Position numbers and translations under genes: made by a program
In this document: positions 15,021 through 36,200 of the stretch, in pieces
Layout of the letters: each line of letters begins with the position of its first letter
Position numbering within the stretch: position 1 is the stretch's first letter
Notes under the pieces: model-generated
What the model saw: only the letters and a program-made list of their open reading frames with translations
What the model was told of the DNA's origin: nothing
Database searches by the model: none
Assembly: GCA_965224705.1 (NCBI GenBank)
Contig: OZ245056.1
Coordinates: 2,528,001-2,592,000 of the forward strand
Source: Spirochaetaceae bacterium
Lineage (GTDB): Bacteria > Spirochaetota > Spirochaetia > DSM-2461
Length of the DNA: 64,000 nucleotides
Reading direction: 5' to 3'

Positions 15021-15812
15021 GTGAAATTTAAGTCCATATTCTGGATATATAACATAATTGTCATATTCGTGCTCCTATCATTCACTCTTATCTCCCTGTT
15101 TGTTTTTGGTTCAATCTACATAGTAGAATACTGGAGCAGGATGTGGGTTGTCACGGCCATCTTTGTCGTTTTAGTTGGACTACTTGATTACTACTTCATT
15201 CTTAATTGGAAACTCTTTGACTTAATGGAAAAAGAAGACTGGCCGGTACTTCTGGCATGGCTGGAGGATAAGATATACAGAAAAGGTAAAATAAAGAAGC
15301 ACTATGTCAACCTTCTGATCAATACGGCATTATCGGTATCCAATCTGGAATCAGTGAGGAAACTGGAAACTGAGATAAGGCACCGAAAAAAAGGATTACT
15401 CCCAAAAGTTGGGGTGTCATTGGGTATCCCCCTGCTGTTGAAACAGAATCACAGGGCCATATATGACTATTATACACAATTTGCGGAGGATGAAAAAACT
15501 TCTATGCGGGAATGGGCCCAATGGTGTCAGGCCTACGCTTCTGAAGATCCAATGTATGCTGTTCTTTTTGAGTTATTGAATAGCCAGGATCCATCTATAA
15601 GTTTACTATCCATGGATTTATTAGAGCAGAATTCGGGGGAACTGGATGAACAGGATATCAGGAAAATCGATGAATTCAAAAGAAGCATCCATTCAAAGTT
15701 AGCTGGTTCAAAGGGTGTCCGCATCCTGCAGGAATCCCGTGAAAGAAGTCTTATCGCCAATGTCATGTCTTCCCGGGTTGATACCGTGCGGGATAAACTC
15801 ATTAACCAGTGA
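15021..15812 (+). CDS. Hypothetical membrane protein
   Basis: Two N-terminal hydrophobic helices; SD AGGAG before GTG. Confidence 0.8.
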   Translation: MKFKSIFWIYNIIVIFVLLSFTLISLFVFGSIYIVEYWSRMWVVTAIFVVLVGLLDYYFILNWKLFDLMEKEDWPVLLAWLEDKIYRKGKIKKHYVNLLINTALSVSNLESVRKLETEIRHRKKGLLPKVGVSLGIPLLLKQNHRAIYDYYTQFAEDEKTSMREWAQWCQAYASEDPMYAVLFELLNSQDPSISLLSMDLLEQNSGELDEQDIRKIDEFKRSIHSKLAGSKGVRILQESRERSLIANVMSSRVDTVRDKLINQ

Positions 15813-17608: not shown

Positions 17609-18346
17609 TCAGTCTGACTCTATCCGTTTCAACCCATCTCGACTCATGACTAAACGGAATCTCTGAGTACTGTGATTCTGATTACCGAAACCTGTCAGGC
17701 AGATTACAAGGCTGAGGCTGTAGACGCGTTTGCTTTTCATTGCCCGTGGTTTTTCGTTCTCTGCAAATACTGATACCATCTTCTCTGGAGCATCCATACT
17801 TCGCAACAGTTCATCCAGTTTCAGGCGTACTATGTCCGTGACCGTATCCAGACGGATATGAAACTTTCTGAGTCTTTTATTGTTGATGACAATTTTTCGT
17901 CGGTAGTGAATCAGATCTTCCTCCGGATGAATATGCTGAAGAGGGCTTGTAATTGTTTGCCTTGCTCGCAAGACATCGCGAGGGGCATTTCTGGCCTTGA
18001 TAAAACGAACTCGACTGTTCACTCTTCCAGCCTTGTTTCCGGTAGCCTGGTCAGTCAGACGAATCCGTTCATCTGCAACAAGGCCAGGTGCGGTATGTAT
18101 CAGTACCTCCCTCAAAGACTCCTTAATGCGGTCTTTGAAAATGTATGAAACGACAATAGCTAAGATCCATGGAAGACTTTGTCCGGGGAGGTACCTATCT
18201 GCAATAATTGACACAGAAACAGCAAAGGTCATGGCAATTGCAGCTGCGATGCTGGCATAGAGTGGTGATCCTGTCTCCGACGCATATATGCACGCCAGAC
18301 TCCGTAATTCGTACAAAATCCGTTTTACATTAACATCATGCGGCAA
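17609..18346 (-). pseudogene. Hypothetical membrane protein, probably 5'-truncated
   Basis: Two TM helices then YIFKDRIKE; no convincing start or SD; 5' end overlaps an opposite-strand fragment. Confidence 0.5.
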
Positions 18347-18820
18347 CAGACTGCTGTCAATTCCTTTCTGAATTCTGGAAAATGGACTGATTTCATACGA
18401 CGGATCAACAAGGTTCGACAGGGATATTGAGGGAACGCCGAATCGAGTCAGGCAGTTTATATCGGAGAAGAAACCGGAAACACCATCAAAATCATGTCAA
18501 AATTCTGGGGCAGCGAGTGGCTTGTGGAACCGCCGGAAGAATCACCTCCCGCGATTTCCCTTAATGAACTCTGTCAGAAGCTGCAGGAGAAATGTACCGA
18601 GGAAGGAGTGGAAAAGGATATAAACATCCATCAAAGCGCGAAAGCTCTCAAAATCCTTTTTCGGCACAGAGGCACAAAAGCCTATAATCTGAAATTTCTG
18701 CTGGAGGATATTTTTGGCAAAAACGCGCTTCACCTGGGATGGAGAATAACCCGCCTGGCCTGTCTGGCTGTTGATAACAATGGGGAAAACCCCATGAATT
18801 ACCTGAATCTCTGTCATTAA
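18308..18820 (+). pseudogene. Interrupted ORF of unknown function upstream of the NLR gene
   Basis: Frame of the 108-aa ORF (18494) continues upstream to 18308 with a single in-frame TGA at 18428-18430. Confidence 0.4.
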
Positions 18821-18994: not shown

Positions 18995-21900
18995 ATGAAA
19001 TCCATAAGCAACGCCATTGACGAATTTCTTGCCCTGAATGAGCTCGGAAAAACCGATGCCAAAAACCTGAACAAGCTGATCGGGCTGCTGGAAGACGGAA
19101 AAGTGGCAACGGAAAGAGCCGTCCAGGCACTGTATGCCGACGCGAAAAATCCAGATGGCAGTTTCAAGAGCTTCATCATGAGGATCAGGGCGGCCATCAA
19201 GGTTACAGCGGACAATCAGAAAGACAAGCGGTTGAAGGAACGGTTGGAATCCATAAAGATAATCACCCATCAGAAAACCTCTTCCATGCCCGGCTGCATC
19301 AGTATTAAGGCCCACTCCGAACCGACCGGCCATCTGCCAGCGGCCAACCGGCAGTACCCGGATGAAAATTATGTTCAAAGCGAGGCATCCAGTGTGGATG
19401 GCAAGCCGCTCCGCAAGGGGGAATCAAAGCTGTTTCTCAGCTACTCCAATGAGAATGCCCGATTAGCCCACGACCTTAAAGACATGCTGGAACAGCAGAG
19501 TAAAGGCACCGAAAACCCTGTCCGTATTTGGTCCATGCTGGAACTGCTGCCGAACCAGAGTTTCATAGAACAGATCAGGGAGAAGCTGAATGAATGCGAT
19601 TTGGGCCTGGCCTGCCTGTCCCAGGCATTCCTCAATAGTCAATTCATAGCGGAGGAGGAAGTCCCTTTTCTACTGAACCACAATAAGATAATCCTGGTCG
19701 GACTGGATTCCCGTTGGGATGGCCGCTCAAAAACACCCTCAGAATTTTTTGATCTTGTGAAAAAGGGCTTTAACGAAAATATCCCCTACTGGAAAAAGAA
19801 TCTCTCGAAGTTATTAGGAATTCATGTATACCACCTGCGCGATACAGAGTGCGGTGCTTTTTGGGGACAATGTGTAAAGAAAACGCCCCAAGAGCAGTTT
19901 GTCGATGGTTTGATTGGGGATATTCGGAAAGTAATCAAACAGAAAAAAGAACGTGAAGAAAAACAGACCGAAGAATTAAAAAAGAACTGGGAAGTTGGAG
20001 ACCGGCGTTACCTTCCCAGGAACTATGTGGATACTGAAGTAAAAGCATTACTAATTCAAAGCCAAACAGAAGCATCCTCGGAAACGCAAAAACGGCACCA
20101 CGAACAGGATGACAAAGAGCCATCCAAACCAACCAGAGAATTGGTGCCCGACATGTTGAACTGGGCGGCCAACGGAAAGGAACCCGTTTACGCCATACTG
20201 GGCGACTACGGCATGGGCAAAACCTTTTCCTGCCGGATTTTCGCCCAGCGTCTGGATGAAGCGCACAAAAAAACGGCCTCCCTGCCGATTTCACTGTACA
20301 TGGATCTGCGTAAGGTACAGACCTTTGTTAAAGACAAGGGTATAGAACGCCTTCCGCGTCTGGACGAAATGATTGATATGATGCTTAAAAGTCATGGAGC
20401 TGAAGCCGATCCGAAGAGATTTATTGAAGACGCGAGACATGGCCGCGTTCTGCCCATATTCGACGGCCTGGATGAAAAGCTGGTCTACTACACCAGGGAC
20501 ATGCAGTACCAGTTTCTGAACGAACTGATGCGGGTGTTCCCGTTCGAAACAACACGGGACAAATCGAAGATCAAAGTCGTGATTTCCTGCCGGACGCATC
20601 ACTTTGAATCAATTGCCCAACAGTCCGTTTTCCTGCAGGGCCTTTACCGGGATGACAGCATGCGGGGCGACTTCCGGGCCATGGAAATACTGCCCCTGTC
20701 GGATGGAAAGATGCGCCAACTCCTGGAAAAAAGGCTGGGCCGGGATGCCACGTTCCAGGTGTGGGAATACATAGACCGTCAGGAATACCTGGCCGCCCTG
20801 GGCCGCCGTCCCCTTCTGCTCAGCAAACTGCCCGATATGCTCCCGTCCATCCAGTCCATGCAGTCAGAGGGAATTCCCGTCAATGCCGCCGTGTTCTATA
20901 AAGCCCTTATCGATGATGTACTGGCTCGGGATAATCCCAAACATGTCCTTAAAAACCGTCATAAGCACCGCCTTCTGCTGGATTTGGCCCTGTATTTCTG
21001 GGAGAAGGGAGAACAGAGCATGAACATAGACAATTTGAACGACTGGTACCAGGCATGGCTGCGCCGCGACCCGGACATGTTTGCCCAGTATCAGACAGAG
21101 GGCAGTGAACAACTGGAAAAAGACCTGCGCAACTCCACCCTGCTGCTCCGCTTCGGTGAAAAAGAATTTGGTTTTACCCACAGCTCCATGCAGGAATACT
21201 TACTGGCCCGGAAACTGCTTTCAGAATGGGGGCAAAACGGTTATTCCCTGGCCAAACCTGTTTCCCGTTTGACAGAGAAGTTCATTGGCGAAGCCCTCGT
21301 GTTGCTGGAGGACGGCGAACGGCGGAAACTGCGTGAACAGCTTGCTGTTTATGCCGCCAGGCCGGAAAAAACCGCCCACTCACCCCATCAGGATGCCCTG
21401 CTGCTCTGCGTAATCCATTCCGCGGCGGAAGCGGGACGGCCTTTTGAAGCCTTTGATGCCATCCATGTCTTTGGTGTCAATTTCTCCGGTGAACGGATTA
21501 GGGGCCTTCGTGCCCGGAAACTAACCCTGAACCGCTGTGAAATGCCGCTCTGCCGCTGGCAGGAAAGCAATATTGACAACCTGGAGTTGAACGAAACCAA
21601 CATCAACCAATCGGTGTGGGAGGAATGCCGGGTTGAGCAAGCGGCGGGAAATGCCCAGGGGCTGACCTGCGTCAACACAGTGGGGCGGATTGAGGGACTC
21701 TGCAAAAACGGAGGAGGCCGGATATATCCGCTGCCGGAGAAGGCCCCTGTGCCGCCCCCGCCGTACGCGGAGAATAATGTAACATGGGGTCATAACTATG
21801 AAATAAACGCGTTGTCATTCAGCCCCGATGGCCGCCTTCTGGCTTCCGCTTCCTCTGACGACACGGTGAGAATCTGGAGCGCGGAGGGCGAATGCCTGCG

Positions 21901-23719
21901 CGTCCTGGAGGGCCATTCCGATGGGGTTCATAGTGTGGACTTCAGCCCCGATGGCCGCCTTCTGGCTTCCGCTTCCTCTGACAACACGGTGAGAATCTGG
22001 AGCGCGGAGGGCGAATGCCTGCGCGTCCTGGAGGGCCATTCCGATGGGGTTCATAGTGTGGGCTTCAGCCCCGATGGCCGCCTTCTGGCTTCCGCTTCCT
22101 CTGACGACACGGTGAGAATCTGGAGCGCGGAGGGCGAATGCCTGCGCGTCCTGGAGGGCCATTCCGATTGGGTTCATAGTGTGGGCTTCAGCCCCGATGG
22201 CCGCCTTCTGGCTTCCGCTTCCTCTGACGACACGGTGAGAATCTGGAGCGCGGAGGGCGAATGCCTGCGCGTCCTGGAGGGCCATTCCGATTCGGTTTGG
22301 AGTGTGGGCTTCAGCCCCGATGGCCGCCTTCTGGCTTCCGCTTCCTCTGACGACACGGTGAGAATCTGGAGTGCGGAGGGCGAATGCCTGCGCGTCCTGG
22401 AGGGCCATTCCGATTCGATTAATAGTGTGGGCTTCAGCCCCGATGGCCGCCTTCTGGCTTCCGCTTCCTCTGACGACACGGTGAGAATCTGGAGCGCGGA
22501 GGGCGAATGCCTGCGCGTCCTGGAGGGCCATTTCCATTGGGTTCATAGTGTGGGCTTCAGCCCCGATGGCCGCCTTCTGGCTTCCGCTTCCTATGATCAC
22601 ACGGTGAGAATCTGGAGCGCGGAGGGCGAATGCCTGCGCGTCCTGGAGGGCCATTCCGATTGGGTTCATAGTGTGGGCTTCAGCCCCGATGGCCGCCTTC
22701 TGGCTTCCGCTTCCTCTGACAACACGGTGAGAATCTGGAGTGCGGAGGGCGAATGCCTGCACGTCCTGGAGGGCCATTTCCTTTCGGTTAATAGTGTGGG
22801 CTACAGCCCCGATGGCCGCCTTCTGGCTTCCGCTTCCTATGATCACACGGTGAGAATCTGGAGCGCGGAGGGCGAATGCCTGCGCGTCCTGGAGGGCCAT
22901 TCCGGTGGGGTTTGGAGTGTGGGCTTCAGCCCCGATGGCCGCCGTCTGGCTTCCGCTTCTTCTGTCAACATGGTGAGAATCTGGAGCGCGGAGGGCGAAT
23001 GCCTGCGCGTCCTGGAGGGCCATTCCGATGGGGTTCGGAGTGTGGGCTTCAGCCCCGATGGCCGCCTTCTGGCTTCCGCTTCCTATGACCACACGGTGAG
23101 AATCTGGAGCGCGGAGGGCGAATGCCTGCGCGTCCTGGAGGGCCATTCCGATTCGGTTATGAGTGTGGGCTTCAGCCCCGATGGCCGCCGTCTGGCTTCC
23201 GCTTCCTTTGATAAAACGGTGAGAATCTGGAGCGCGGAGGGCGAATGCCTGCGCGTCCTGGAGGGCCATTCCGGTGGGGTTATGAGTGTGGGCTTCAGCC
23301 CCGATGGCCGCCTTCTGGCTTCCGCTTCCGATGACAACACGGTGAGAATCTGGAGCGCGGAGGGCGAATGCCTGCGCGTCCTGGAGGGCCATTCCGATTC
23401 GGTTATGTGTGTGGGCTTCAGCCCCGATGGCCGCCTTCTGGCTTCCGGATCCCATGACGGAACGCATATTATCTGGTCCGTAGACCAGGGCCTTCCGCTC
23501 CGTATTATGAGCGCGCAAATAGACGGGCAGTGGTGGTCGGTGGAAATAGACGAAAACCGCCGTTACACCCGGATGCTGGGCACCGAACTGGCCTGGCAGC
23601 GGGTGTGGCTGCGGCATAAGGACGGTGTGGCTTCCCTGGATGCCTTTGACGGGTTTCGATTGGTGCCGTCACGACACTGCCTGAAAAATGATGCCAAAAC
23701 ACATCTGAATCGACCATGA
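18995..23719 (+). CDS. NLR-like STAND protein: TIR - NACHT - pentapeptide-like - 14 WD40 repeats
   Basis: TIR LFLSYS...LSQAFLNSQFIAEEEV; Walker A GDYGMGKT; Walker B IFDGLDE; ISCRTHHF; FTHSSMQEYLLA; GH...FSPDG...IW repeats. Confidence 0.93.
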   Translation: MKSISNAIDEFLALNELGKTDAKNLNKLIGLLEDGKVATERAVQALYADAKNPDGSFKSFIMRIRAAIKVTADNQKDKRLKERLESIKIITHQKTSSMPGCISIKAHSEPTGHLPAANRQYPDENYVQSEASSVDGKPLRKGESKLFLSYSNENARLAHDLKDMLEQQSKGTENPVRIWSMLELLPNQSFIEQIREKLNECDLGLACLSQAFLNSQFIAEEEVPFLLNHNKIILVGLDSRWDGRSKTPSEFFDLVKKGFNENIPYWKKNLSKLLGIHVYHLRDTECGAFWGQCVKKTPQEQFVDGLIGDIRKVIKQKKEREEKQTEELKKNWEVGDRRYLPRNYVDTEVKALLIQSQTEASSETQKRHHEQDDKEPSKPTRELVPDMLNWAANGKEPVYAILGDYGMGKTFSCRIFAQRLDEAHKKTASLPISLYMDLRKVQTFVKDKGIERLPRLDEMIDMMLKSHGAEADPKRFIEDARHGRVLPIFDGLDEKLVYYTRDMQYQFLNELMRVFPFETTRDKSKIKVVISCRTHHFESIAQQSVFLQGLYRDDSMRGDFRAMEILPLSDGKMRQLLEKRLGRDATFQVWEYIDRQEYLAALGRRPLLLSKLPDMLPSIQSMQSEGIPVNAAVFYKALIDDVLARDNPKHVLKNRHKHRLLLDLALYFWEKGEQSMNIDNLNDWYQAWLRRDPDMFAQYQTEGSEQLEKDLRNSTLLLRFGEKEFGFTHSSMQEYLLARKLLSEWGQNGYSLAKPVSRLTEKFIGEALVLLEDGERRKLREQLAVYAARPEKTAHSPHQDALLLCVIHSAAEAGRPFEAFDAIHVFGVNFSGERIRGLRARKLTLNRCEMPLCRWQESNIDNLELNETNINQSVWEECRVEQAAGNAQGLTCVNTVGRIEGLCKNGGGRIYPLPEKAPVPPPPYAENNVTWGHNYEINALSFSPDGRLLASASSDDTVRIWSAEGECLRVLEGHSDGVHSVDFSPDGRLLASASSDNTVRIWSAEGECLRVLEGHSDGVHSVGFSPDGRLLASASSDDTVRIWSAEGECLRVLEGHSDWVHSVGFSPDGRLLASASSDDTVRIWSAEGECLRVLEGHSDSVWSVGFSPDGRLLASASSDDTVRIWSAEGECLRVLEGHSDSINSVGFSPDGRLLASASSDDTVRIWSAEGECLRVLEGHFHWVHSVGFSPDGRLLASASYDHTVRIWSAEGECLRVLEGHSDWVHSVGFSPDGRLLASASSDNTVRIWSAEGECLHVLEGHFLSVNSVGYSPDGRLLASASYDHTVRIWSAEGECLRVLEGHSGGVWSVGFSPDGRRLASASSVNMVRIWSAEGECLRVLEGHSDGVRSVGFSPDGRLLASASYDHTVRIWSAEGECLRVLEGHSDSVMSVGFSPDGRRLASASFDKTVRIWSAEGECLRVLEGHSGGVMSVGFSPDGRLLASASDDNTVRIWSAEGECLRVLEGHSDSVMCVGFSPDGRLLASGSHDGTHIIWSVDQGLPLRIMSAQIDGQWWSVEIDENRRYTRMLGTELAWQRVWLRHKDGVASLDAFDGFRLVPSRHCLKNDAKTHLNRP
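21788..23490 (+). repeat. 14 tandem 123-bp WD40-encoding repeats
   Basis: GH codons at 21788, 21911 ... 23387 at exact 123-bp spacing; internal units near-identical in DNA. Confidence 0.97.
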
Positions 23720-26504: not shown

Positions 26505-26857
26505 TGCAGATAATCGGAAGGATGAAATGCCGGGACACGAAGAAATGCCGACTCTGGTTCGACCAGAGGGGAATCAAGTACCATTTTGTTGATCTTGAAA
26601 AACGAGATTTGAGTCAGGGTGAATGGCAGGCTGTTGCAACCGGGCGAAATTGGGATGATTTAATAGACCGGAGCGGAAAGGCATGGGAAAAGCATCAACT
26701 GGCCTGGAAGGATTACAATCCCCGGGATGAATTGATGGATGATTCAGCCTTACTCAAAACCCCGGTACTGAGGGAGGGGCGAATGGTTGCTGTTGGCTAT
26801 GATCCCGGGGCATGGGAAAAGGTTCTGCAGATGATTAAATCAGGAGGGGAGAAATGA
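26504..26857 (+). CDS. ArsC/Spx family protein
   Basis: KCRDTKKC..WF, LLKTPVLR. Confidence 0.85.
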   Translation: MQIIGRMKCRDTKKCRLWFDQRGIKYHFVDLEKRDLSQGEWQAVATGRNWDDLIDRSGKAWEKHQLAWKDYNPRDELMDDSALLKTPVLREGRMVAVGYDPGAWEKVLQMIKSGGEK

Positions 26858-28788
26858 GCAGGGATGCACAGAATTTCTATAAAACAATGCTCTCAGTCTG
26901 GGACAATTTGGACAGGGCCAATGATCAAACAGCAGATTCAGCGTATGAATTTTTGAAAGCACTGGCAGGTGTTCGGGAAACGGATAATCTGGAGGATGTT
27001 TTCCGGGATGCTGTCAATGCCGTGCATGCTGAGTTCGATAATGCACCGAAAGATAGAAAAGAGGCATTACTGAACCTTCAGCAATTGGTTGACGGCGGAG
27101 ATGCTGCGGAAGAAACCATTGTACATGCTGTTTGGAAGGCTTTTTTTCCTGAGGCTCTTCATCTTGACGATAACCCGGAAAAACAAATTGAACTGCTGCG
27201 CAAAAGTCGGCGGATTGATGTCCATAAGCTTGTTGATGATCCCATTGATGATGTTCCCGGCCAGATTGTATTTACTTCCAATGTTCTTCTTTCTCCGCCT
27301 GTTCCCAACAGGGATTCTGGTGCCATTGAAGAAGTGAAGAAGATTGTCCAGGGTGCTGATGAGGTCAATAAGGAATCTCAACAGTACTGGTATGATCATC
27401 CGATTCCTGTTGGTATTCCCCCGCAGAATGATGAAGTTGTGTATGGTCTGGAGGGAATGGCTCAAACTCTTGCTTTTGAGAAAAAACAAGGAACGGCTCG
27501 TCCATCGGATCGGCTGACCATACTGCTTTCCGTGTCCGTTACTCACCGCGGCCTTCATCGCTGGGCAGGACCCTGGCTCAAGGTGCAGCTGGCAGGACTG
27601 GAGAAAGAAAGATTTGAGGGACTGGATGTTTTTGCCTTTACGGAGGCGGATACGGATAAGATCGTCGATGTACTGCTTCCCTGGCTGGACAATCCTGATG
27701 ACGAAACTGCACTGAGGAAAACTTTTGGAGTTGATGGGGAATATGGCCGGCATTATTCCTTTTTGAAGGCCATGCCAGCTCTCTGGGCCATTCTGGATAA
27801 CCCAAAAATAAAGGCCACATTCAAAATTGATCTGGATCAGGTTTTTCCTCAGGAAGTTCTTACTGAGGAAACAGGGAAAAGTGCGTTTGAGCATTTCAGG
27901 ACTCCTCTCTGGGGAGCCCTTGGAAAAGATGTATCCGGACAGGACGTTGAGCTTGGCATGATTGCCGGGGCTCTGGTGAACGAGAAAGACATTTCTGATG
28001 GATTATTCACACCGGACATCCCATGGCCTTCTGATCTTCCTCAAGGTGGTGAATTCTTATTCTTCAAACAGAGGCCCATGGCGGTGTCCACTCGTGCGGA
28101 ACTCAATACCCGCAATGGAGATGTAGAACCCATACACCGCATACATGTGACGGGCGGAACAAATGGCATCCGGCTGGATGCCCTGCGATGCCACCAGCCT
28201 TTTACTCCCAGCTTCATTGGCCGGGCTGAAGACCAGGCCTACCTTCTCTCCGTTCTTACAAATTGGCGGGAACGGGCATCGTTAAGGTATGTCCATGCTT
28301 CTGGATTGATTATGCGTCATGACAAAGCCGCCTTTGCCGGTGATGCGGTAAAGGCAGGAAAAGCCGGTTCCCATGTTGGAGACCTGATCCGAATACTTGT
28401 ATTCAGTGCCTATGCCGGTTTCCTCCCCGATGGACCTGAAAAGATCAAAAAACTAATCGATCCCTTTACTGGATGTTTTATCACACCCCTTCCCATCACA
28501 CTTGTGCTGCTGAGTCTGGCCCTTCATCTTCTTTCCCCGGGCAGTGAGGACGGTCGAAAAAGAATTCTCTCCCTTGCCAATAAACGGCTGCCGGATTGGG
28601 TTAAAAACTATGATAGGAAATCGACATCGCTGAAAAGAATATGGCATCAGGAAAAACGTGGATGGAATGCGTACTATACAGCCCTCAATAACCTGGAAGC
28701 CGCAGTGAAGGCAGGGAGCGATGAAGCCCATCACACATCCAGACGATTCAAGGAAATTGTAAAGAACTGCAGAATAACGGACAGATGA
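26854..28788 (+). CDS. Uncharacterised 644-aa protein, possible GT-A-fold enzyme
   Basis: ATGA overlaps at both ends; KIDLDQ (DxD), TGGTNG, RAEDQ. Confidence 0.8.
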   Translation: MSRDAQNFYKTMLSVWDNLDRANDQTADSAYEFLKALAGVRETDNLEDVFRDAVNAVHAEFDNAPKDRKEALLNLQQLVDGGDAAEETIVHAVWKAFFPEALHLDDNPEKQIELLRKSRRIDVHKLVDDPIDDVPGQIVFTSNVLLSPPVPNRDSGAIEEVKKIVQGADEVNKESQQYWYDHPIPVGIPPQNDEVVYGLEGMAQTLAFEKKQGTARPSDRLTILLSVSVTHRGLHRWAGPWLKVQLAGLEKERFEGLDVFAFTEADTDKIVDVLLPWLDNPDDETALRKTFGVDGEYGRHYSFLKAMPALWAILDNPKIKATFKIDLDQVFPQEVLTEETGKSAFEHFRTPLWGALGKDVSGQDVELGMIAGALVNEKDISDGLFTPDIPWPSDLPQGGEFLFFKQRPMAVSTRAELNTRNGDVEPIHRIHVTGGTNGIRLDALRCHQPFTPSFIGRAEDQAYLLSVLTNWRERASLRYVHASGLIMRHDKAAFAGDAVKAGKAGSHVGDLIRILVFSAYAGFLPDGPEKIKKLIDPFTGCFITPLPITLVLLSLALHLLSPGSEDGRKRILSLANKRLPDWVKNYDRKSTSLKRIWHQEKRGWNAYYTALNNLEAAVKAGSDEAHHTSRRFKEIVKNCRITDR

Positions 28789-29629: not shown

Positions 29630-30640
29630 TCAGGGTTCTGGTCTTGCCAGTACCTTCCATTCTCCATCTGTATCCAGTCCCACAAGAAACACAAGGAAAT
29701 CGACTCCACTCAAGTCGATATGATTCATGTTATTCTCATTTCCCATAAATAAATACATATCCATACCCGGAGACCATTCCCTTGAAATATCGAACCATTC
29801 CGGGAACATATCGGAGTACGTCTCCATAGAGTATATCCTGTAGATGAAATGCTTTCTGTAATCCTGAATGGTTGATATGCCGGGAATACCTGATGGAAGG
29901 GGAAGGCTGTATTTCTGTCTTGAGCTGCCATCGTCAAGAATGTGTATTGTATCATTTTGTGAACGGTAGTATTCGGTTAGATCACCTGTAATACAGGAAT
30001 CAATAAATGAAAGTGAGAATTCCATGGCTGCCTGGGGGCCTGTATTAAAGGGCTGAGGACGATTGTTTTCGGAGTTGATCACTGGTGCCCGGGTGTAGGC
30101 CAGTTGTACAGAGGATCCTTCATGACCGGGTCGAATTGATTTTGCCTGTACCTCCCAGGCTTCCATCGATATGGCATAGATGGTTCCCTGGAGGGGTGTT
30201 CGGGGAGATGCAATCAGTTTTGCTTCAACGATACTGCGATCCCCTGAGTCAACCAATCGTCTGAGATCCTCAAACCAATTACTGTATGAATCATTTTCTT
30301 TCTGAACACTCTGGGCCCAGTCGTGTGTGAATAGTGAGGTGCCTGCCTGATTGAAAATCCTGACCTGGAGTGTAACAGGTCCACCTGAACTCTGGTGTTC
30401 ATAGCGGCTGCGAAGCCGCCAGATCCTGGTTGACTTCTTATTTGTGGAATGAGTCTTCACGGTATCCCAGTCGATGACGGCAATAGTGGTCCAACCCCTG
30501 GAGCTGTCCAGAATCACTGGAGGAGTTTCTGGTCCGCCGAATATTGTCAGTGTATCAGCAAGAGTATTCTGGGAATTGTCTGCATGGATTTGAAAAACTG
30601 ATATCAGGATCAGCAGCAGTAAAGGGAAGCGATAAATCAT
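29630..30640 (-). CDS. Hypothetical exported protein
   Basis: Signal peptide MIYRFPLLLLILISVFQIHA. Confidence 0.75.
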   Translation of the reverse strand: MIYRFPLLLLILISVFQIHADNSQNTLADTLTIFGGPETPPVILDSSRGWTTIAVIDWDTVKTHSTNKKSTRIWRLRSRYEHQSSGGPVTLQVRIFNQAGTSLFTHDWAQSVQKENDSYSNWFEDLRRLVDSGDRSIVEAKLIASPRTPLQGTIYAISMEAWEVQAKSIRPGHEGSSVQLAYTRAPVINSENNRPQPFNTGPQAAMEFSLSFIDSCITGDLTEYYRSQNDTIHILDDGSSRQKYSLPLPSGIPGISTIQDYRKHFIYRIYSMETYSDMFPEWFDISREWSPGMDMYLFMGNENNMNHIDLSGVDFLVFLVGLDTDGEWKVLARPEP

Positions 30641-30706
30641 TGAATACCTCAATGAAAATATCGACATTCAGATATTATTTTGTTAGCCTGATTTACAGGC
30701 TCCCAG

Positions 30707-30867: not shown

Positions 30868-33162
30868 CTAAAGTTCCATGAGAACCGTCACACTCCGCTC
30901 CTGAGATAGGCCCTGGTCATCAAGCAGAATCAGATCATATTGACCGGGGGAAGGAGTCCATATCAGTGTTTCTTCCGGTTGGGTTTTTCCAAGAAAAATT
31001 CCATTGGCAAACCAGAATATCTCATTGACCTCTCCATCAACTGCTCCCATCAATGGAATTTTCCCGAAACGATCCAATTCGGGTCTGAGGATGTAGGTTG
31101 CCCTGGCGACGGGAGAAAGAATGGTTGGCTGAATCATCCTCCTGTCCGTATGGATTCCCTTATCTTCAAATGGGGGCGGTACGGGCCTGGGGATTCCTGC
31201 TTCCCGAAATAATTTGAGGAGATCAGAAGGCCATACCTCACGGACAATCATTTTTGTACCTGCTCCCTCAGTTCTCACTCTCAAACCTGTTTCTTCATCG
31301 ATCCAGAAAGGTCTGTGAATCCCGCACAGTTTAGCCGGTGAAATGCCGGGCATGAAAAGGGCCTGTTCCAGATGTTGGCAGTACTTTCCAGGAATGGATC
31401 CGGATATGGCACAGACCTCAATAATGCTTACCCCGGGCACAAATTTCAGACGGAAATTCTTAACTCTGCTTTCGAGGAGTTTGGTCATATCAAAAAGAAA
31501 GGGAGCCGCAATACTTCTTCCCAGAAAGGCCGGGTTTCCCTCTCCACTGAAATTCCCAATCCAGACAGCCATCACATAGGGGCCATGGAGACCAATGCTC
31601 CAGGCATCCTTGAATCCGATGGAAGTTCCCGTTTTCCAGGCCGCAGGTACTTCTTTACCGACAGGATTCCAACTCTCAGATATGGGGAATTCTTTTTCAG
31701 GGGAAGGATTCCGTTCCAGAATAAGCCGTATGACTCGAGATGCCTGGGGGCTCATTATATTTTTTTCAGGAAAAGATTTAAGTACTCGATCCCTTCCAAT
31801 TAAAATGTCTTTGAGTCTTCCTTCGTTTCCTATGGCAGCATAGAGTCCTGCCAGTTCAAGCATGGTTAATTCGGCCGTTCCCAAAACGATGGAAAGTCCA
31901 TAATGATTCTTCTCCTTCAGTTCTCCCACTTCTGCCAGGGCAAGAAGGTCGTGGAGGTCTAAATCGTGGAGATTGGAATTGAGTTCCACAGCGGGGATAT
32001 TCCGGCTGTTAACCAATGCGGCCCATACGGGAACAGGTCCATGAAAATCTTCTTTGTAGTTATCGGGTGTGTAGGAACTGAAGCTTACCGGCCGGTCATG
32101 GAGAATGGAATTGGAATGGATCAAACCCTGGTCGAGTCCCTGTCCGTAAATGAATGGCTTGAGGGTTGAACCGGGTGAACGCCGTGAATTTGTACCGTTC
32201 ACCATGCCCTGAATGGATTCATCAAAGAAATCAGCCGAACCGATCATTGCAAGAAGCTCCATCGTCTGGTAATTGAGAACAAGGGCAGCTCCATTTTTCA
32301 CTCCCCTGTCAGAATTTCTTGCTACATAAGACTTCAGCCGGGTATGGATTTCCCTCTGTAAATCCCAGTCAATACTTGTAATCATTCCTTCTTTTTCGGT
32401 GAACTTTGTTCTGAGAAGCTCTGTCAGGTGGGGAGTTTTGTATCGGGGCTCTGGATGTATGACAGGAAGCAGTTCTAAATGGAAAATTCTCTCTTCCCTG
32501 CCGGAATAGACGGATTTCCATCGTTCATGAAGCCGGTTTCTTGCCATAAGAATTTCGCTGTGATTCTCAGCATTTCGGGGATTTCTGTCCTGTGGATTCT
32601 GTGGAAGTATGCAGAGCATCATCATTTCACCAAGATTCAGCTCATCCAGTGAACGGCTGAAATAATGAAGGGAGGCCGCCGGGAAGCCCTGAATATTCCC
32701 CCCGCAGGGAACCAGGTTGAGGTAGGTTTCGAGAATCTCTTGTTTTGAATGAAATAGATCCATGTACAGGGCATGGAGAATCTGATTGATCTTTCCGGGT
32801 ATGCTTTGAGTGTTCAATCCATAGTAGAGACGAGCCAGCTGCATTGTAATTGTTGAACCTCCCATTCGCCGATTCCTGATTACATAGGTCTGGTAGAATC
32901 CCCTGAGCAGGGAAACTGGATTAACTCCCGGATGCAGATGGAAATATCTGTCTTCCTGGAGAAGTATTATTGAAATAAAATTCCGGGGATATGAAGATAT
33001 ATGGGTGTAATAGCGGTACTGTTCATCGCTGGCGGGATACATCCCCAGAAGATTGTTCTGACGGGAGAAATAAACCTTTGAAAATGGAATCTTATCGTGC
33101 AGCGGTTTGATGCGCATCACGAACAGAGCAGGAACCAGGAGCAGGAGGGGCAGAGTCAGCAT
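30868..33162 (-). CDS. pbpC: Penicillin-binding protein 1C
   Basis: EDRYF, GGSTITMQL, GSTLKP, SRN, KTGT; downstream of alpha-2-macroglobulin. Confidence 0.95.
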   Translation of the reverse strand: MLTLPLLLLVPALFVMRIKPLHDKIPFSKVYFSRQNNLLGMYPASDEQYRYYTHISSYPRNFISIILLQEDRYFHLHPGVNPVSLLRGFYQTYVIRNRRMGGSTITMQLARLYYGLNTQSIPGKINQILHALYMDLFHSKQEILETYLNLVPCGGNIQGFPAASLHYFSRSLDELNLGEMMMLCILPQNPQDRNPRNAENHSEILMARNRLHERWKSVYSGREERIFHLELLPVIHPEPRYKTPHLTELLRTKFTEKEGMITSIDWDLQREIHTRLKSYVARNSDRGVKNGAALVLNYQTMELLAMIGSADFFDESIQGMVNGTNSRRSPGSTLKPFIYGQGLDQGLIHSNSILHDRPVSFSSYTPDNYKEDFHGPVPVWAALVNSRNIPAVELNSNLHDLDLHDLLALAEVGELKEKNHYGLSIVLGTAELTMLELAGLYAAIGNEGRLKDILIGRDRVLKSFPEKNIMSPQASRVIRLILERNPSPEKEFPISESWNPVGKEVPAAWKTGTSIGFKDAWSIGLHGPYVMAVWIGNFSGEGNPAFLGRSIAAPFLFDMTKLLESRVKNFRLKFVPGVSIIEVCAISGSIPGKYCQHLEQALFMPGISPAKLCGIHRPFWIDEETGLRVRTEGAGTKMIVREVWPSDLLKLFREAGIPRPVPPPFEDKGIHTDRRMIQPTILSPVARATYILRPELDRFGKIPLMGAVDGEVNEIFWFANGIFLGKTQPEETLIWTPSPGQYDLILLDDQGLSQERSVTVLMEL

Positions 33163-33210
33163 CCATCTTCTTGAATTCCTCCTTGTAATACGGATTTTCC
33201 CTCCCAGAAC

Positions 33211-36200
33211 CTACTCCTTTACAGTTATCTCCGAACTTCTCTGCATGGCCCATATCTTATTGTCGTACATGGCTTCCGCAAAGAGGGGCGGTACCTTGAA
33301 TTGACCCGAATAAACAGATCGCACGGGGTAGGTGAAGGTAGTCAGTCTATTTTCTGCCGTTCCATAGAATACAAGTCGATCTTCCCGAATTTCAACATGA
33401 TCTGGCTGGAATGTTGAGCTTTCCCCTCCTCTCTGGTCAACCAGTGCACGAATTCTATCCTGTATCGGTTCCAGGCAGGCGGGTAGAAGATCAACAATGG
33501 CAACATCAGGAATATCCTCCCCCATGAGTGATCGTATGCTGATCTTCACAAAACAGATCTCTCCAGGTTCCAGCTCTTTGACAGGCTTCAAATCCTCACC
33601 AAGGAACTCACGCAGGATTTCTATTCCTTCCGAAATCTCTTCTTCTGGAGTCTCCCGGTCGAATCCTCCCTGGATAATCTGGTAATACAATGGCTCCTCA
33701 TTTTTGTTTGATATACTGATTGTCTGAGCGGTGGGACTGAAATCGGTGCTTTTGAGAACTTCACCGCTCAGGGAGAGCGTATTCCTGTCCTGATTTTCAA
33801 GATATTCCATTATCTCCATGGCCCGGGTATCAATCCTGTCTACGGCATCAACATAGGCCTGAATGGCTACAAGAGCCAGGGAAGCGGAGTAAGTGCTGAA
33901 ATGGTTTGCACTGATCTCAAGGGATAGAGCGTTGAGCAATTCACTGGATACCCTGCCGAGACCTCCCTTATCGTAGCTGGATAGTACCCAGAGATACTGA
34001 CTCAGATAGCTGAGTCTATCGTTGTAGCCATTGGCAAAATCACTTTCCTCAGGATTTATTCTCACGTTTCTCAGAATAGCTGCCGCCTGGCTTTTCATCT
34101 GGAGCAGACTGTAGCTTGAGGCCAGATAAAGACCGATCAGATCGGACTTCCACTCAGTGTCTTCTGCTTTCAGATCCGCCCTTATTTCTTCAATAAAACG
34201 GGTTGTTACAGTTCCTGAAAGGGTGAGAAGAAAGGTGGCAAAAGCTCTCAGCCGCATATCTTCAATACCTGTCTCTTTAATAGATGCAATTTCTTCAACT
34301 CTACTGGCTGCATGTTCAAAGGTGAACCGGGGAACATGGAATCCATTTCTTTCGGATTCAAGCAGGAAATGAAAGGAATGAAGATCGATCAGAGGATCCG
34401 GTGGAGACTTGATGGTCCACGTTCCAAACCCGCCTGAATCCTGCTGTCTTGCCTGCATTATTGACATGGTGGAGGAATACTGCTTTGCAGCTTCCTCCCG
34501 GTCGATGTTGAGATTTTTAATCAGACCACTGTAGAGCAGGGGAAAGGTTTTACTTATCAGTTGCTCTGTGCAGATGTAGGAGTATTCACTCAGATAGTAA
34601 TTCAGTCCTCCGGCCAGTCCGATGGGGAGGTAGGACGCTGAAACTTCCAGTTTTCTGAAATCAGGATACATCCTTCGGTTTATGGGGATTTCGTCGCCTC
34701 CCTGTTTGCTGACTCCGCTAATAATTGTTGTCCGGAAGGGAACCAGGGGTCTGACACTCAGGGAGTGAATCATTGAGGAACTCTTTCCGCCGGACGATGC
34801 ATTGACAGTTAGATCCTTTGAGCCCGGCATATCACCCACTTCAACTGGAAACTTCACCACTTCGTCCCTGCCTTCGGGGATAATGACTGTCCTGCTGGTC
34901 TCGGGAATTATGAGACCCTTACTCCCTTTCAGCGTAACAATAACTTCGGCATTCTCGCCTGATCCTTCAAGGTTATTGGACACCGTTGCCTGGAATGAGA
35001 AGCGATCTCCCCCTGCCGCAGCCAGGGGGGCTGAAGGTTGAATAACAAAGGTTGAACGGGCCAGGGTTGATTCACTTCTGGATCCCACCGCGTCCTTTGA
35101 GACACAAACAGCCATAATCCTCAATGAACCATTGAAGTAATCTGGAACTTTGTAGCTGACGGATCGGGTTTGAGGGCTGGATTCAAGAATTCCGGACCAG
35201 AATACAACAGGGGCCTGATTCTTCTTCTTGAATGGGTTGAGATTGTTGTTGATCAGCATTTCAGCGCTCATACCTCCTCCCGCAGCCGAAAACCGTTTCA
35301 CTATCGAGTAATCGGGCAGAATCAAATCAAGTATCTGGGCGGTGTTCACTTCAAGTGCTCTCTTTTTGAAGAAATAGGCCAGGGGATCGGGAGTCGTGTA
35401 GCGGCCAACCTGCAGTATTCCTTCATCAACGGCATATATAATGATCCTTCCCCTCCTGTTTGAGGAGTAATCGATCTTCAATTCCTTACCCGGCTCGATT
35501 AAGTCGGGGTAATCAAGGGAAATACTCTGAGTTCTTTTTTCCCTGTCAAGAAAAAAAGGAACCGATCCACTGGAAAGAGGAGACATGAAAATATCCGTTG
35601 AATCGGGGGCTCGGACACAGACGACGGACACATAGGCATTTCCCTCAAAGCTGTTTGCAGGTATCTCTATCGTCTGAACAGTTGAGGTGGAATCAGTTTT
35701 GAACCACTTGTATGTGTACACCTTATCAGCTTCGATGGTAATCAATCCGGCCCCGGGATAGGGGGCGTTGATTGAGACTTCAATCAACTCGCCCTCTTTA
35801 TAGTCGTTCTTATTGAGTTTTATTTCCAATTCAGCTGATCGGTTCAAGGATCGTGCGAAGTCGATTTCACCGGCAACTGTATAGTCGAATTGGGCAGTAA
35901 CATCCCCATCTTCATTAAGAATTTCGGCAGAGTAATTCCCCGGTTCCGAGGTATTCAGGGGGAGTATTGTTCCCTCTGAGTCAATGGAAATGGGAGTGCT
36001 TGTTATGGGCTGTTCCTTTTCTACTGACTGGTATTTGAACACTCCGTCAGGCTGTTTCACCAGAGTTGTGATGAACTTCCTGCTTTTAAGGGCAAGAGTC
36101 ATTCCTTTCAGCGAAATCTTTTCCAGTTCAGGATTGATGGCGATGAGTTCAACATTCCTCTCACTTCCTTTATGGATGAAGGAAAGATCTCCATCAGCTT

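What the first reader, a model, noticed from the sequence alone, without database searches (positions are those of the whole stretch)
21788..23490. Hypervariable WD40 sensor array in a bacterial NLR: homogenised repeats with focused codon diversification
Seen: 14 units of exactly 123 bp; internal units are nearly identical, with very few silent differences (e.g. AGC/AGT). Variation is concentrated in two patches per unit. After GH: SDGVH, SDWVH, SDSVW, SDSIN, FHWVH, FLSVN, SGGVW, SDGVR, SDSVM, SGGVM (one codon takes CAT/TGG/AAT/CGG/ATG, i.e. multi-base changes). After ASAS: SDD, SDN, YDH, SVN, FDK, DDN. The patches reassort: YDH occurs with three different left patches, SDWVH with both SDD and SDN. 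Known: these positions lie on the ligand-binding top face of WD40 propellers, 14 blades fits two 7-bladed propellers, and concerted evolution plus positive selection at such sites is how Podospora HET-D/HET-E/HET-R NLRs make new specificities. Inference: a bacterial immune or kin-recognition receptor whose specificity is rewritten by repeat shuffling or gene conversion. Best candidate here for an undescribed system.
Basis: partly seen in the sequence, partly recalled or inferred. Interest (0 to 1): 0.9.

Follow-up and report, generated by a model that had tools for sequence, protein, structure and literature searches.

The report
Near-identical WD40 repeats in bacterial NLR
This is a bacterial immune-type sensor gene whose 14 almost identical propeller repeats differ mainly at the predicted ligand-binding positions, a pattern already described for such genes in cyanobacteria and fungi, so it is a clear but ordinary example.

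Summary
ORF 18995-23719 (+, 1574 aa) ends in 13 near-identical 123-bp WD40 units plus one degenerate unit (TRF: period 123, 94% match, no indels). The units differ mainly at codons 13, 15, 35, 36 and 38. These lie in the b-c turn, in the d-a loop and at the start of strand a, the top-face hotspot positions of WD40 propellers.

The protein reads NNH6 helical domain, TIR, NACHT NTPase (Walker A, DGLDE), a short pentapeptide-repeat stretch, then WD40 x14. It is a bacterial NLR-like STAND protein.

It is not an undescribed system. Its closest solved relative is the 14-blade WRAP propeller of Nostoc punctiforme (PDB 2YMU, about 50% identity). Highly repetitive WD40 arrays with variable hotspots in bacterial STAND/NLR proteins are already in print.

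- The same columns are hypervariable in 26 other arrays of the family.
- A paralogue lies beside a CRISPR-Cas locus in the same genome.
- That paralogue and its orthologue (84% identical N-terminus) keep 14 units but show no position-by-position correspondence of internal units.

This points to array turnover at a fixed blade number. Function (ligand-triggered TIR NADase defence) is inferred. Array order was not checked with long reads.

The parts
18995..23719 (+). Whole gene, 1574 aa: NNH6 - TIR - NACHT - pentapeptide-like stretch - 14 WD40 units - C-terminal tail
   Evidence: ORF list and translation; domain scans
19034..19204 (+). N-terminal helical domain (aa 14-70), weak match to Pfam NNH6 (NACHT N-terminal helical domain 6)
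   Evidence: E 3.6e-5, 24.3 bits, below the cut-off of 27. PF22737 is precomputed on homologues P0004 and P0005.
19433..19759 (+). TIR domain (aa 147-255). E222 is invariant in 6 of 6 aligned family members and is the candidate catalytic glutamate (inferred).
   Evidence: Pfam TIR_2 34.3 bits, above cut-off 28. The family profile hits solved TIR domains: 7uxr E 2.8e-4, Cat1 3.9e-4, AbTIR 0.014. Invariant columns.
20150..21304 (+). NACHT-type STAND NTPase module (about aa 386-770, limits approximate). Walker A GDYGMGKT is aa 403-410 (nt 20201-20224). Walker B IFDGLDE is aa 488-494 (nt 20456-20476).
   Evidence: Pfam NACHT 20.9 bits, below cut-off 26.7. Motifs are invariant in alignment A3. The D[GAS]hDE signature is as defined in the Kibby preprint.
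21524..21643 (+). Short pentapeptide-repeat-like stretch (aa 844-883) between the NTPase and the propellers
   Evidence: Pfam Pentapeptide_4 E 0.0045, below cut-off. Family profile A3 hits solved pentapeptide-repeat proteins at E 4.9e-9 to 1e-5.
21788..21817 (+). Non-repeated leading strand (GHNYEINALS) before unit 1. It differs from the equivalent part of the repeats.
   Evidence: A, B and P0002 each have their own version
21818..23416 (+). Homogenised core: 13 units of 123 bp (41 aa). Hypervariable codons in each unit are 13, 15, 35, 36 and 38, with codon 34 less so.
23417..23539 (+). Unit 14, degenerate. It is conserved by position between paralogues and orthologues, not homogenised with units 1-13.
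   Evidence: A_14 is nearest to B_14 (0.797 nt). The last units of B and P0002 are 100% identical.
23540..23719 (+). C-terminal tail with further predicted strands, then the stop codon. It is conserved in relatives (GQWWS..GTELAWQRV motif).
   Evidence: DSSP of the model

Best explanation
The gene encodes a single-chain bacterial NLR-like STAND protein.

Architecture (shown): an N-terminal helical domain, a TIR effector domain, a NACHT-type NTPase, a short pentapeptide-repeat connector and a sensor of 14 WD40 blades forming two beta-propellers.

The array (shown): it is a WRAP-type, highly internally conserved array. The framework of 13 blades is about 98.5% identical at the DNA level. The residues that point out of the top face (b-c turn codons 13 and 15; d-a loop and strand-a start codons 35, 36 and 38) differ from blade to blade, often by two or three bases per codon.

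Evolution (supported indirectly): intragenic recombination, gene conversion or repeated re-amplification keeps the framework uniform. Diversifying selection keeps or creates differences at the contact residues. The set of contact residues therefore changes quickly while the blade number stays at 14.

Function (inferred from the domain families, not tested): the propellers bind a foreign protein, most likely from a phage. Binding releases NACHT oligomerisation, which brings the TIR domains together. The TIR domains then consume NAD+ or make a nucleotide signal, stopping the infected cell.
For: Architecture:
- 14 WD40 matches.
- TIR_2 above its cut-off, plus weak NNH6, NACHT and Pentapeptide_4 matches.
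- Walker A, Walker B and DGLDE invariant in the family alignment.
- The D[GAS]hDE definition of NACHT.
- The family profile hits solved TIR and pentapeptide-repeat structures.

Propeller:
- phmmer E 5e-212 to 2YMU.
- Foldseek top hit 2YMU, 50% identity over 571 columns, followed by Apaf-1.
- AlphaFold model with mean pLDDT 78.4 and two confident all-beta blocks.

Hotspots:
- In the model's DSSP the strands fall at unit positions 7-12, 16-21, 26-31 and 37-41. The variable codons therefore lie in the b-c turn, in the d-a loop and at the start of strand a.
- Codons 13, 36 and 38 are D-1, R1-2 and R1 of Wu 2012.

Selection:
- Hot-codon pN 0.405 against framework pS 0.030, a ratio of about 19 after correction. 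Framework dN/dS is 0.69.
- 10 of 28 minimal mutations lie in 9 pre-defined nt, P = 1.7e-5.

Family-wide pattern:
- Of 30 arrays with at least 6 full units, 27 have mean unit identity of 0.6 or more.
- In the 26 of those other than this one, the top-5 variable columns are 13 (24 arrays), 36 (21), 35 (19), 15 (15) and 38 (15).

Turnover:
- Paralogue B and its orthologue P0002 share 84% N-terminal identity, an identical last unit and a 90% identical tail.
- Their 13 internal units match no better by position (0.70) than off position (0.70).
- 38 of 39 internal units of A, B and G009 have their nearest neighbour in their own array. The one exception is a unit with a codon deletion.

Exchange within the array:
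- 32 of 78 informative site pairs fail the four-gamete test, including pairs with synonymous sites.

Defence context:
- Paralogue B lies between a type II CRISPR-Cas locus and an SNF2 helicase/DUF4391 pair.

The family is large: 2174 cluster representatives at E <= 1e-3 and 561 at E <= 1e-30.
Against: - No functional data of any kind.
- PADLOC gives no named defence system. Its only matches are a WD-driven HEAT-ARM_XIII match and weak SAVED_TIR and BrxD matches.
- The gene in the window sits among housekeeping genes (gltX, hisS, tyrS), not in a defence island.
- The NACHT and NNH6 Pfam matches are below their cut-offs.
- No solved NACHT chain was hit by the family profile at E <= 0.1.
- The excess of non-synonymous over synonymous events across the whole array is only marginal: 25 against 3, P = 0.059. 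Hot codons against the rest give Fisher P = 0.067.
- Four-gamete failures can also come from recurrent selected mutation.
- Unit identity does not fall with distance along the array. That also fits a single recent amplification.
- Both AlphaFold models fit the C-terminal propeller to 8-bladed structures (rmsd 1.4-1.7) better than to 7-bladed WRAP-T (rmsd 3.1-3.4). The 7+7 split is therefore not confirmed.
- Array order and unit number rest on one assembly. Public short-read contigs do not bridge the array.
Confidence: 0.6

Rival explanations
1. Recent one-off amplification (the 'recently amplified propeller' view). The 13 units arose very recently from one blade and have since only collected point mutations, fastest at surface positions. 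There is no ongoing exchange between units.
For: - Only three purely synonymous polymorphic sites.
- Framework dN/dS is about 0.7, as expected for very young copies.
- Identity is independent of the distance between units.
- WRAP is a precedent, and the authors of that work argue for independent amplifications.
- P0011, a relative, ends in a disrupted array.
Against: - 32 of 78 informative site pairs show all four combinations, including pairs with synonymous markers.
- Codon 38 alone needs about six base changes, while 108 framework nt carry 12 in all.
- A, B, P0002, G009/P0003 and G001b each have their own unit consensus yet the same count of 14. A, B and P0002 also keep a non-repeated first strand and a position-conserved last unit. 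A fresh amplification would have to hit these each time.
Confidence: 0.2
2. Not an immune receptor. The protein is a scaffold or signalling NTPase with a cellular partner, and the hotspot variety simply lets each blade hold a different part of one large ligand.
For: - The gene lies among aminoacyl-tRNA synthetase genes.
- There is no PADLOC system match.
- Some relatives are annotated 'High-affinity carbon uptake protein Hat/HatR'.
- The blade number is fixed at 14.
Against: - The TIR plus NACHT combination is typical of conflict systems (passages).
- The array turned over between orthologues with conserved flanks. That is hard to reconcile with a fixed cellular ligand.
- The distribution is patchy: matches in 3 of 13 other same-genus genomes, only one of them a full-length relative (G009); two are partial (about 30% over the NACHT region) and one is a 45-residue match at E 5.5e-4. 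Relatives occur in unrelated phyla.
- The paralogue lies beside CRISPR-Cas.
- G+C is higher than in neighbouring genes: GC3 0.61-0.70 against 0.47-0.53.
Confidence: 0.1
3. Assembly artefact. The number or order of units, or the combination of patches, was produced by mis-assembly of a repeat.
For: No read or contig spanning the array was available. Public contigs of the runs that hold the sequence are short pieces.
Against: - The genome is a single 3.0-Mb contig without N.
- The reading frame is intact over 1574 codons.
- Several patch-specific pieces of the array are found letter for letter in short contigs of runs X1 and X2, for example 22023-22084, 23007-23066 and 23161-23245. These runs may be the source sample, so this is weak support.
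- The paralogue and relatives from other assemblies have the same 14-unit layout.
Confidence: 0.03
4. Targeted mutagenesis by a diversity-generating retroelement or a similar device writes the variable codons.
For: Five reverse-transcriptase matches exist in the genome. Variation is focused on a few codons.
Against: - The nearest reverse transcriptase is about 335 kb from the gene.
- No template copy of the unit exists. The only other copies are the paralogue's units at 69-80% identity.
- The changes are not confined to one base type. For example G/T, G/C, C/A/T and T/G all occur.
Confidence: 0.02

Closest known systems
WRAP propeller of Npun_R6612, Nostoc punctiforme (PDB 2YMU), and WRAP-like 'recently amplified' WD40 propellers
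   Same: - 14 units of 41 aa with near-identical blades and almost no synonymous differences.
- The C-terminal sensor of a STAND NTPase that is linked to a TIR domain.
- The recurrent variable site of WRAP (Trp/Arg) is the same column as codon 38 here.
- About 50% identity.
   Different: - Here TIR, NTPase and propellers are in one polypeptide. In WRAP the TIR-carrying STAND protein is a separate, co-transcribed gene.
- This array carries many more hotspot variants: WRAP has 10 point mutations in all against 28 minimal mutations here.
- A pentapeptide-like connector is present.
- The closest same-genus relatives carry record titles reading Spirochaetaceae, not cyanobacteria.
Podospora anserina HNWD NLRs (HET-D, HET-E, HET-R)
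   Same: NACHT plus highly internally conserved WD40 repeats, concerted evolution, a few hypervariable codons on the interaction surface, and a double propeller.
   Different: - The N-terminal effector is TIR, not HET.
- Units are 41 aa, not 42 aa.
- The unit number is constant at 14 in the close relatives seen here, whereas the fungal alleles vary in length.
- The allorecognition function and allelic series are not shown here.
Bacterial NACHT (bNACHT) antiphage proteins
   Same: Tripartite layout of effector, NACHT and repeat sensor. TIR appears among the listed effectors, and beta-propeller and pentapeptide repeats among the listed sensors. The D[GAS]hDE signature is present.
   Different: - None of the passages I read reports an experimentally tested member with a WD40 array ('wd40' occurs 0 times in that preprint).
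- The clade of this protein was not determined.
Apaf-1 and Apaf-1-like WD40 STAND sensors
   Same: A STAND NTPase followed by two WD40 propellers that clamp a protein ligand. Apaf-1 is among the top Foldseek matches. 'Apaf1-like WD40 beta-propellers' are listed as sensors of prokaryotic defence STANDs.
   Different: - Apaf-1 is an AP-ATPase, not a NACHT.
- It has a CARD effector.
- Its blades are diverged, not homogenised.
HR-WD40 proteins (Hu et al. 2017)
   Same: Internal identity of 0.7 or more (0.88 here), many repeats, complete DHSW tetrads, and hotspot sites that are diverse while the rest is conserved.
   Different: That study is a catalogue. It gives no link to this TIR-NACHT family ('nacht' and 'tir' each occur 0 times in the text).

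Membership tests
NACHT-clade STAND NTPase (bacterial NLR-related) | Walker A P-loop GxxxxGK[ST] | tested here: met
   GDYGMGKT at aa 403-410, invariant in 6 of 6 aligned relatives
NACHT-clade STAND NTPase (bacterial NLR-related) | Walker B with the D[GAS]hDE signature | tested here: met
   IFDGLDE at aa 488-494, invariant in alignment A3. Signature as worded in the Kibby preprint.
NACHT-clade STAND NTPase (bacterial NLR-related) | Pfam NACHT (PF05729) match above the gathering score | tested here: inconclusive
   20.9 bits against a cut-off of 26.7, E 3.4e-4. PF05729 is precomputed on several of the homologues found (e.g. P0003-P0005, P0007, P0009). No solved NACHT chain was hit by profile A3 at E <= 0.1.
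TIR domain effector | Pfam TIR family match above the gathering score | tested here: met
   TIR_2 34.3 bits against cut-off 28, aa 147-255. The profile hits solved TIR domains.
TIR domain effector | Catalytic glutamate and NAD+ cleavage | not testable with these tools
   E222 is invariant in the alignments. Its equivalence to the catalytic Glu of TIR NADases is my inference from the motif context, not an aligned structure.
WRAP / HR / HIC WD40 array | High internal identity of blades (at least 0.7 by Hu 2017; above 60% by Pereira and Lupas 2022) | tested here: met
   Mean unit identity 0.88 aa and 0.938 nt. Thresholds.
WRAP / HR / HIC WD40 array | Few or no synonymous differences between blades | tested here: met
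   3 purely synonymous polymorphic sites out of 23. Framework pS 0.030.
WRAP / HR / HIC WD40 array | 14 blades folding as two 7-bladed propellers | tested here: inconclusive
   14 units and about 50% identity to 2YMU. Both AlphaFold models fit residues 271-592 best to 8-bladed propellers (rmsd 1.4-1.7, Z 41-46) and worse to 7-bladed WRAP-T (rmsd 3.1-3.4). Model confidence is low at the junction.
Fungal HNWD NLRs (HET-D/E/R) | N-terminal HET cell-death domain | tested here: not met
   The Pfam scan of aa 1-930 finds TIR_2 and NNH6, and no HET.
Fungal HNWD NLRs (HET-D/E/R) | HIC WD40 repeats with hypervariable surface codons under diversifying selection | tested here: met
   The excess of non-synonymous events over the whole array is only marginal (P = 0.059).
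Fungal HNWD NLRs (HET-D/E/R) | Allelic repeat-number and order polymorphism tied to recognition specificity | not testable with these tools
   No second strain of this gene was found. The closest relatives are 64-72% identical in the N-terminus. Indirect support comes from the turnover between B and P0002.
Named anti-phage systems in PADLOC 2.0 | Match to a system model over the NTPase or effector part | tested here: not met
   Only HEAT-ARM_XIII on the WD part, SAVED_TIR at E 1.7e-5 and BrxD at E 0.0054.
Diversity-generating retroelement target | Adjacent reverse transcriptase and a template repeat with adenine-specific differences | tested here: not met
   The nearest RT match is about 335 kb away. 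No template copy exists. Mixed base changes.

The most novel reading that the evidence does not exclude
The array is an actively recombining contingency locus. Exchange among the 13 near-identical 123-bp cassettes reshuffles the sets of top-face residues at a fixed count of 14 blades. A bacterial population would then carry a changing repertoire of NLR specificities, a prokaryotic counterpart of the Podospora het-d/het-e system. The complete loss of positional correspondence between the paralogue's array and its orthologue's would be one snapshot of that process.
Probability: 0.25. Interest if true: 0.7.

Novelty: new member of a known kind. Interest (0 to 1): 0.3.

Why it matters
Two explanations for near-identical WD40 blades in microbial NLR-like proteins are both in print. 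One is repeated fresh amplification from a single blade. The other is concerted evolution with diversifying selection. For bacteria the second was, in the passages I read, offered only as a possibility.

This locus and its relatives give a compact test case:
- There are two paralogues in one closed genome, one strongly homogenised and one less so.
- An orthologue of the second paralogue has turned over its array while keeping 14 blades and its end units.

If strain-level long reads showed unit exchange, it would show that bacteria diversify an innate immune sensor by cassette shuffling. As it stands the finding is a well-formed example of a described class, useful mainly as material for that test.

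Tried and rejected
- Donor pool. A search of the whole genome with three units found only the array itself and the paralogue's array at 75-79% identity. Unit-by-unit identity between the two arrays is 0.69-0.80, and the longest exact tract shared by them is 26 nt, in the conserved FSPDGRR part. I rejected a donor pool.
- DGR. Rejected; see the rival explanations.
- Sequencing runs. Four coded runs were listed and no RNA holder was listed.
- Laid contigs. They are short pieces and none spans the array. The stretch 22344-22865 had no cover. Loose ends at 22964 and 23201 read like the paralogue's units, so they say nothing about heterogeneity. The array order could therefore not be verified.
- Synteny. 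tblastn of the window's flanking proteins (gltX, hisS, tyrS and three unnamed ORFs) against 7 related loci gave no hit. There is no shared context.
- The three unnamed ORFs around the gene (15021-15812, 17609-18346, 18494-18820) have no Pfam match.
- A single-sequence search of the TIR region against solved structures gave only chance-level hits. The family profile was needed.
- Earlier notes of this scan: nothing for this genome or sequence.
- Kaur et al. 2020 (passages) held nothing on near-identical repeats.
- Model coordinates are not given to scripts. Surface mapping rests on DSSP strand positions and on the published hotspot rule, not on measured solvent exposure.
- NCBIfam gave only spurious sub-threshold matches driven by the repeats.
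Full report
**What is there**

The window holds one long ORF, 18995-23719 on the + strand, 1574 aa. Tandem Repeats Finder reports a single array at 21818-23447 with period 123, 13.3 copies, 94% matches and no indels.

In the register that begins at F-SPDGR, the units start at 21818+123*i. Units 1-13 are near-identical. Unit 14 (23417-23539) is degenerate in its second half. A non-repeated strand (GHNYEINALS, 21788-21817) precedes unit 1, and a 59-aa tail follows unit 14.

**How the units differ**

- Among the 13 units, 23 of 123 nt are polymorphic. Three of these sites are purely synonymous.
- Mean pairwise nt identity is 0.938. In the framework outside codons 13-15 and 34-38 it is 0.985, and it does not fall with distance along the array.
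- Variation is concentrated in codons 13, 15, 35, 36 and 38.
- Using only the three hotspot positions defined beforehand by Wu et al. 2012 (D-1, R1-2, R1; passages read), which are codons 13, 36 and 38 here, 10 of 28 minimal mutations fall in 9 of 123 nt (P = 1.7e-5).
- With five codons the figure is 16 of 28 (P = 1.7e-8). Two of those five were picked after seeing the data.
- Nei-Gojobori proportions are pN 0.405 and pS 0.051 in the five codons, against pN 0.020 and pS 0.030 elsewhere.
- The excess of non-synonymous over synonymous events across the whole array is only marginal (25 against 3, P = 0.059). Hot codons against the rest give Fisher P = 0.067, because there are so few synonymous events.
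- 32 of 78 pairs of informative sites show all four combinations, including pairs that involve the synonymous markers. That indicates exchange between units or recurrent mutation.

**What the protein is**

The Pfam scan of the whole protein is swamped by WD40 (14 stretches). A scan of aa 1-930 alone gives:

| Domain | Residues | Score vs cut-off |
|---|---|---|
| NNH6 | 14-70 | below cut-off |
| TIR_2 | 147-255 | 34.3 bits, cut-off 28 |
| NACHT | 399-496 | 20.9 bits, cut-off 26.7 |
| Pentapeptide_4 | 844-883 | weak, below cut-off |

Walker A (GDYGMGKT, 403-410) and Walker B (IFDGLDE, 488-494) are invariant in an alignment with five relatives. DGLDE fits the D[GAS]hDE signature that the Kibby et al. 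preprint gives for the NACHT clade (passages read).

A profile of that alignment hits solved pentapeptide-repeat proteins (E 4.9e-9 and weaker) and solved TIR domains (7uxr 2.8e-4, Cat1 3.9e-4, AbTIR 0.014). It hits no solved NACHT chain at E <= 0.1.

A glutamate, E222, is invariant in the TIR region. That it is the catalytic residue is my inference.

PADLOC has no system model for the protein.

**The propellers**

The repeat region matches PDB 2YMU ('highly repetitive propeller structure') at E 5e-212. 2YMU is also the top Foldseek hit, with 50% identity over 571 columns, followed by tandem-propeller proteins including Apaf-1.

I made two AlphaFold models:

| Model | Rows in alignment | Mean pLDDT | pTM |
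|---|---|---|---|
| First | 8 | 73.6 | 0.53 |
| Second | 17 | 78.4 | 0.55 |

The second model has two confident blocks and a weak junction at residues 240-320.

In its DSSP string the strands of each unit fall at unit positions 7-12, 16-21, 26-31 and 37-41. Codons 13 and 15 therefore lie in the b-c turn, 35-36 in the d-a loop, and 38 is the second residue of strand a. By the established WD40 topology and the Wu 2012 rule (V-R1-R2-V = V37-H38-S39-V40; D14 is the tetrad Asp), these are top-face positions.

The split into 7+7 blades is not confirmed. In both models residues of about 271-592 superpose best on 8-bladed propellers (rmsd 1.4-1.7, Z 41-46). They fit 7-bladed WRAP-T less well (rmsd 3.1-3.4). 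The 7+7 reading rests on the crystal structure of the 50%-identical 14-blade homologue.

**Relatives**

The genome is one contig of 3,005,944 bp with 47.1% G+C. The gene is richer in G+C than its neighbours:

| Region | G+C | GC3 |
|---|---|---|
| N-terminal part of the gene | 51.6% | 0.61 |
| Repeat array | 62.8% | 0.70 |
| Five neighbouring genes | 46-49% | 0.47-0.53 |

A paralogue, B (genome 551130-555893, minus strand, 1583 aa), has the same architecture and 14 units. It is 67% identical in the N-terminus, and its array is less uniform (0.832 nt identity).

B lies between a type II CRISPR-Cas locus (Csx12-type Cas9, Cas1, Cas2, Cas4 and a repeat array) and an SNF2 helicase with DUF4391. 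The gene in the window lies between gltX and hisS/tyrS.

In 40 related genomes, matches were found in 3 of 13 other same-genus genomes and in none of 27 genomes outside the genus. The two same-genus loci I read (G009; G001, two genes) carry TIR-NACHT-type proteins with 14, 16 and 14 near-identical units. The third match, G008, was a 45-residue stretch at E 5.5e-4.

A scan of genome contigs confirmed 210 relatives among 599 pattern matches. The 80 loci kept come from many phyla, including cable bacteria, Bathymodiolus symbionts, Arcobacter, Thiothrix, actinomycetes and acidobacteria. The two same-genus records are titled 'Spirochaetaceae bacterium'.

A full HMMER scan finds 2174 cluster representatives at E <= 1e-3 and 561 at E <= 1e-30.

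**Family-wide pattern**

I built a unit HMM and scanned 66 ORFs: 63 of the 80 loci, after dropping 17 whose ORF had almost no sequence after the NTPase match, plus A, B and G001a.

- 30 arrays had at least 6 full units, and 27 of them have mean unit identity of 0.6 or more.
- This array, at 0.88, is second of the 30.
- In the 26 such arrays other than this one, the five most variable columns are most often 13 (24 arrays), 36 (21), 35 (19), 15 (15) and 38 (15), followed by 34 (10).
- In complete ORFs the domain counts cluster at 13-15 and 7-10.

The hypervariable positions and the 14-unit layout are therefore properties of the family, not of this gene alone.

**Turnover**

P0002, from an 85-kb metagenomic contig, is the orthologue of paralogue B. 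The N-terminus is 84% identical, the last degenerate unit is 100% identical and the tail is 90% identical.

Its 13 internal units match B's units no better by position (0.70) than off position (0.70). Identity within the array is 0.88 in P0002 and 0.67 in B.

At the DNA level, 38 of 39 internal units of A, B and G009 have their nearest neighbour in their own array. The single exception is B's unit with a one-codon deletion, an artefact of ungapped comparison. The last units pair across arrays.

The internal units are therefore replaced or homogenised on a timescale shorter than the divergence of the flanks. The number of units and the end units are kept.

**Comparison with what is known**

| Source | What I read | What it says | Call |
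|---|---|---|---|
| Afanasieva et al. 2019 | passages | WRAP of Nostoc punctiforme has 14 practically identical blades, no synonymous changes, and recurrent Trp/Arg at one position. 2YMU shows two 7-bladed propellers. | 46 |
| Pereira and Lupas 2022 | passages | WRAP is the C-terminus of a STAND ATPase coupled to a TIR-carrying STAND. It is read as recent amplification and linked to innate immunity. | 45 |
| Hu et al. 2017 | passages and section 11 in full | 305 highly repetitive WD40 proteins, half of them bacterial. The predicted hotspot sites are diverse. | 25, 62 |
| Dyrka et al. 2020 preprint | passages | Bacterial NLRs have WD and TPR repeats of 80-90% internal identity. [quoted passage not shown]
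| 2025 Podospora paper | passages | Sets out the fungal paradigm. | 61 |
| 2026 STAND census | passages | Lists Apaf1-like WD40 propellers among defence sensors. | 27 |

I did not see Dunin-Horkawicz 2014, Paoletti 2007 or Chevanne 2010 themselves.

My five searches turned up no paper that tests repeat shuffling in a bacterial WD40 NLR experimentally. That is a limited search, not proof of absence.

**Verdict**

The claim of an undescribed system is not.

This is a new member of a known kind: a WRAP-type, highly internally conserved WD40 sensor in a TIR-NACHT bacterial NLR-like protein.

The mechanism of homogenisation (conversion or unequal exchange against re-amplification), the ligand, the TIR activity and the accuracy of the assembled unit order all remain open.

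Noticed in passing
Own genome C1:541000-550000 (locus L100:1-8789): A type II CRISPR-Cas locus sits directly downstream of the paralogue. It has a CRISPR array of about 37-nt repeats at 72-77 nt spacing (at least 11 copies), Cas4, Cas2, Cas1 and a 1609-aa Cas9 with the Csx12-type helical lobe.
   Followed up: partly
Own genome C1:556774-560687 (L100:15775-19688): An SNF2/ResIII helicase (1084 aa) followed by a DUF4391 protein lies upstream of the paralogue. It looks like another defence-type gene pair.
   Followed up: no
window 21815-23617 (-): A 600-aa open frame runs antisense through the repeat array. It is most likely a by-product of repeating a unit whose antisense frame has no stop codon, not a gene.
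   Followed up: no
window 30868-38967 (-): A penicillin-binding protein with a BiPBP_C domain (764 aa) sits next to a 1918-aa bacterial alpha-2-macroglobulin. From recall, this is the known A2M-PBP1C pairing.
   Followed up: no
window 18995-23719 versus flanks: The gene is much richer in G+C than its surroundings: array 62.8% with GC3 0.70, against genome 47.1% and neighbours' GC3 of 0.47-0.53. The paralogue shows the same trend. This could reflect foreign origin or GC-biased conversion in the repeats. I did not separate the two.
   Followed up: partly
P0002 (protein, aa ~100-190): The orthologue of the paralogue carries an internal duplication of about 43 aa just before its TIR domain (the stretch ...PIGNLPDANRQYNSEQFVF... 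occurs twice).
   Followed up: no
P0011 (protein, C-terminus): A related protein has 7 near-identical units of the P0002 type and then ends in an unrelated 20-aa tail. This may be a frameshifted or truncated array, as described for disrupted WRAP-like propellers.
   Followed up: no
window 22055-22292; runs X3 and X4: A run from another sample of the same study (X3) and a run labelled mollusc metagenome (X4) each hold a 153-nt contig identical to part of the array. X4 also holds a 41-nt piece near the gene's end with 4 differences. These are short pieces and may come from a relative.
   Followed up: partly
Own genome C1:332290, 1071852, 1652954: There are three copies of a 426-aa reverse-transcriptase open frame, one of them with an in-frame TAG. 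They are probably copies of a mobile retroelement. All are far from the gene studied.
   Followed up: no
window 26854-28788 (+), 29630-30667 (-): Two sizeable ORFs (644 aa and 345 aa) have no Pfam match at E <= 1e-4.
   Followed up: no
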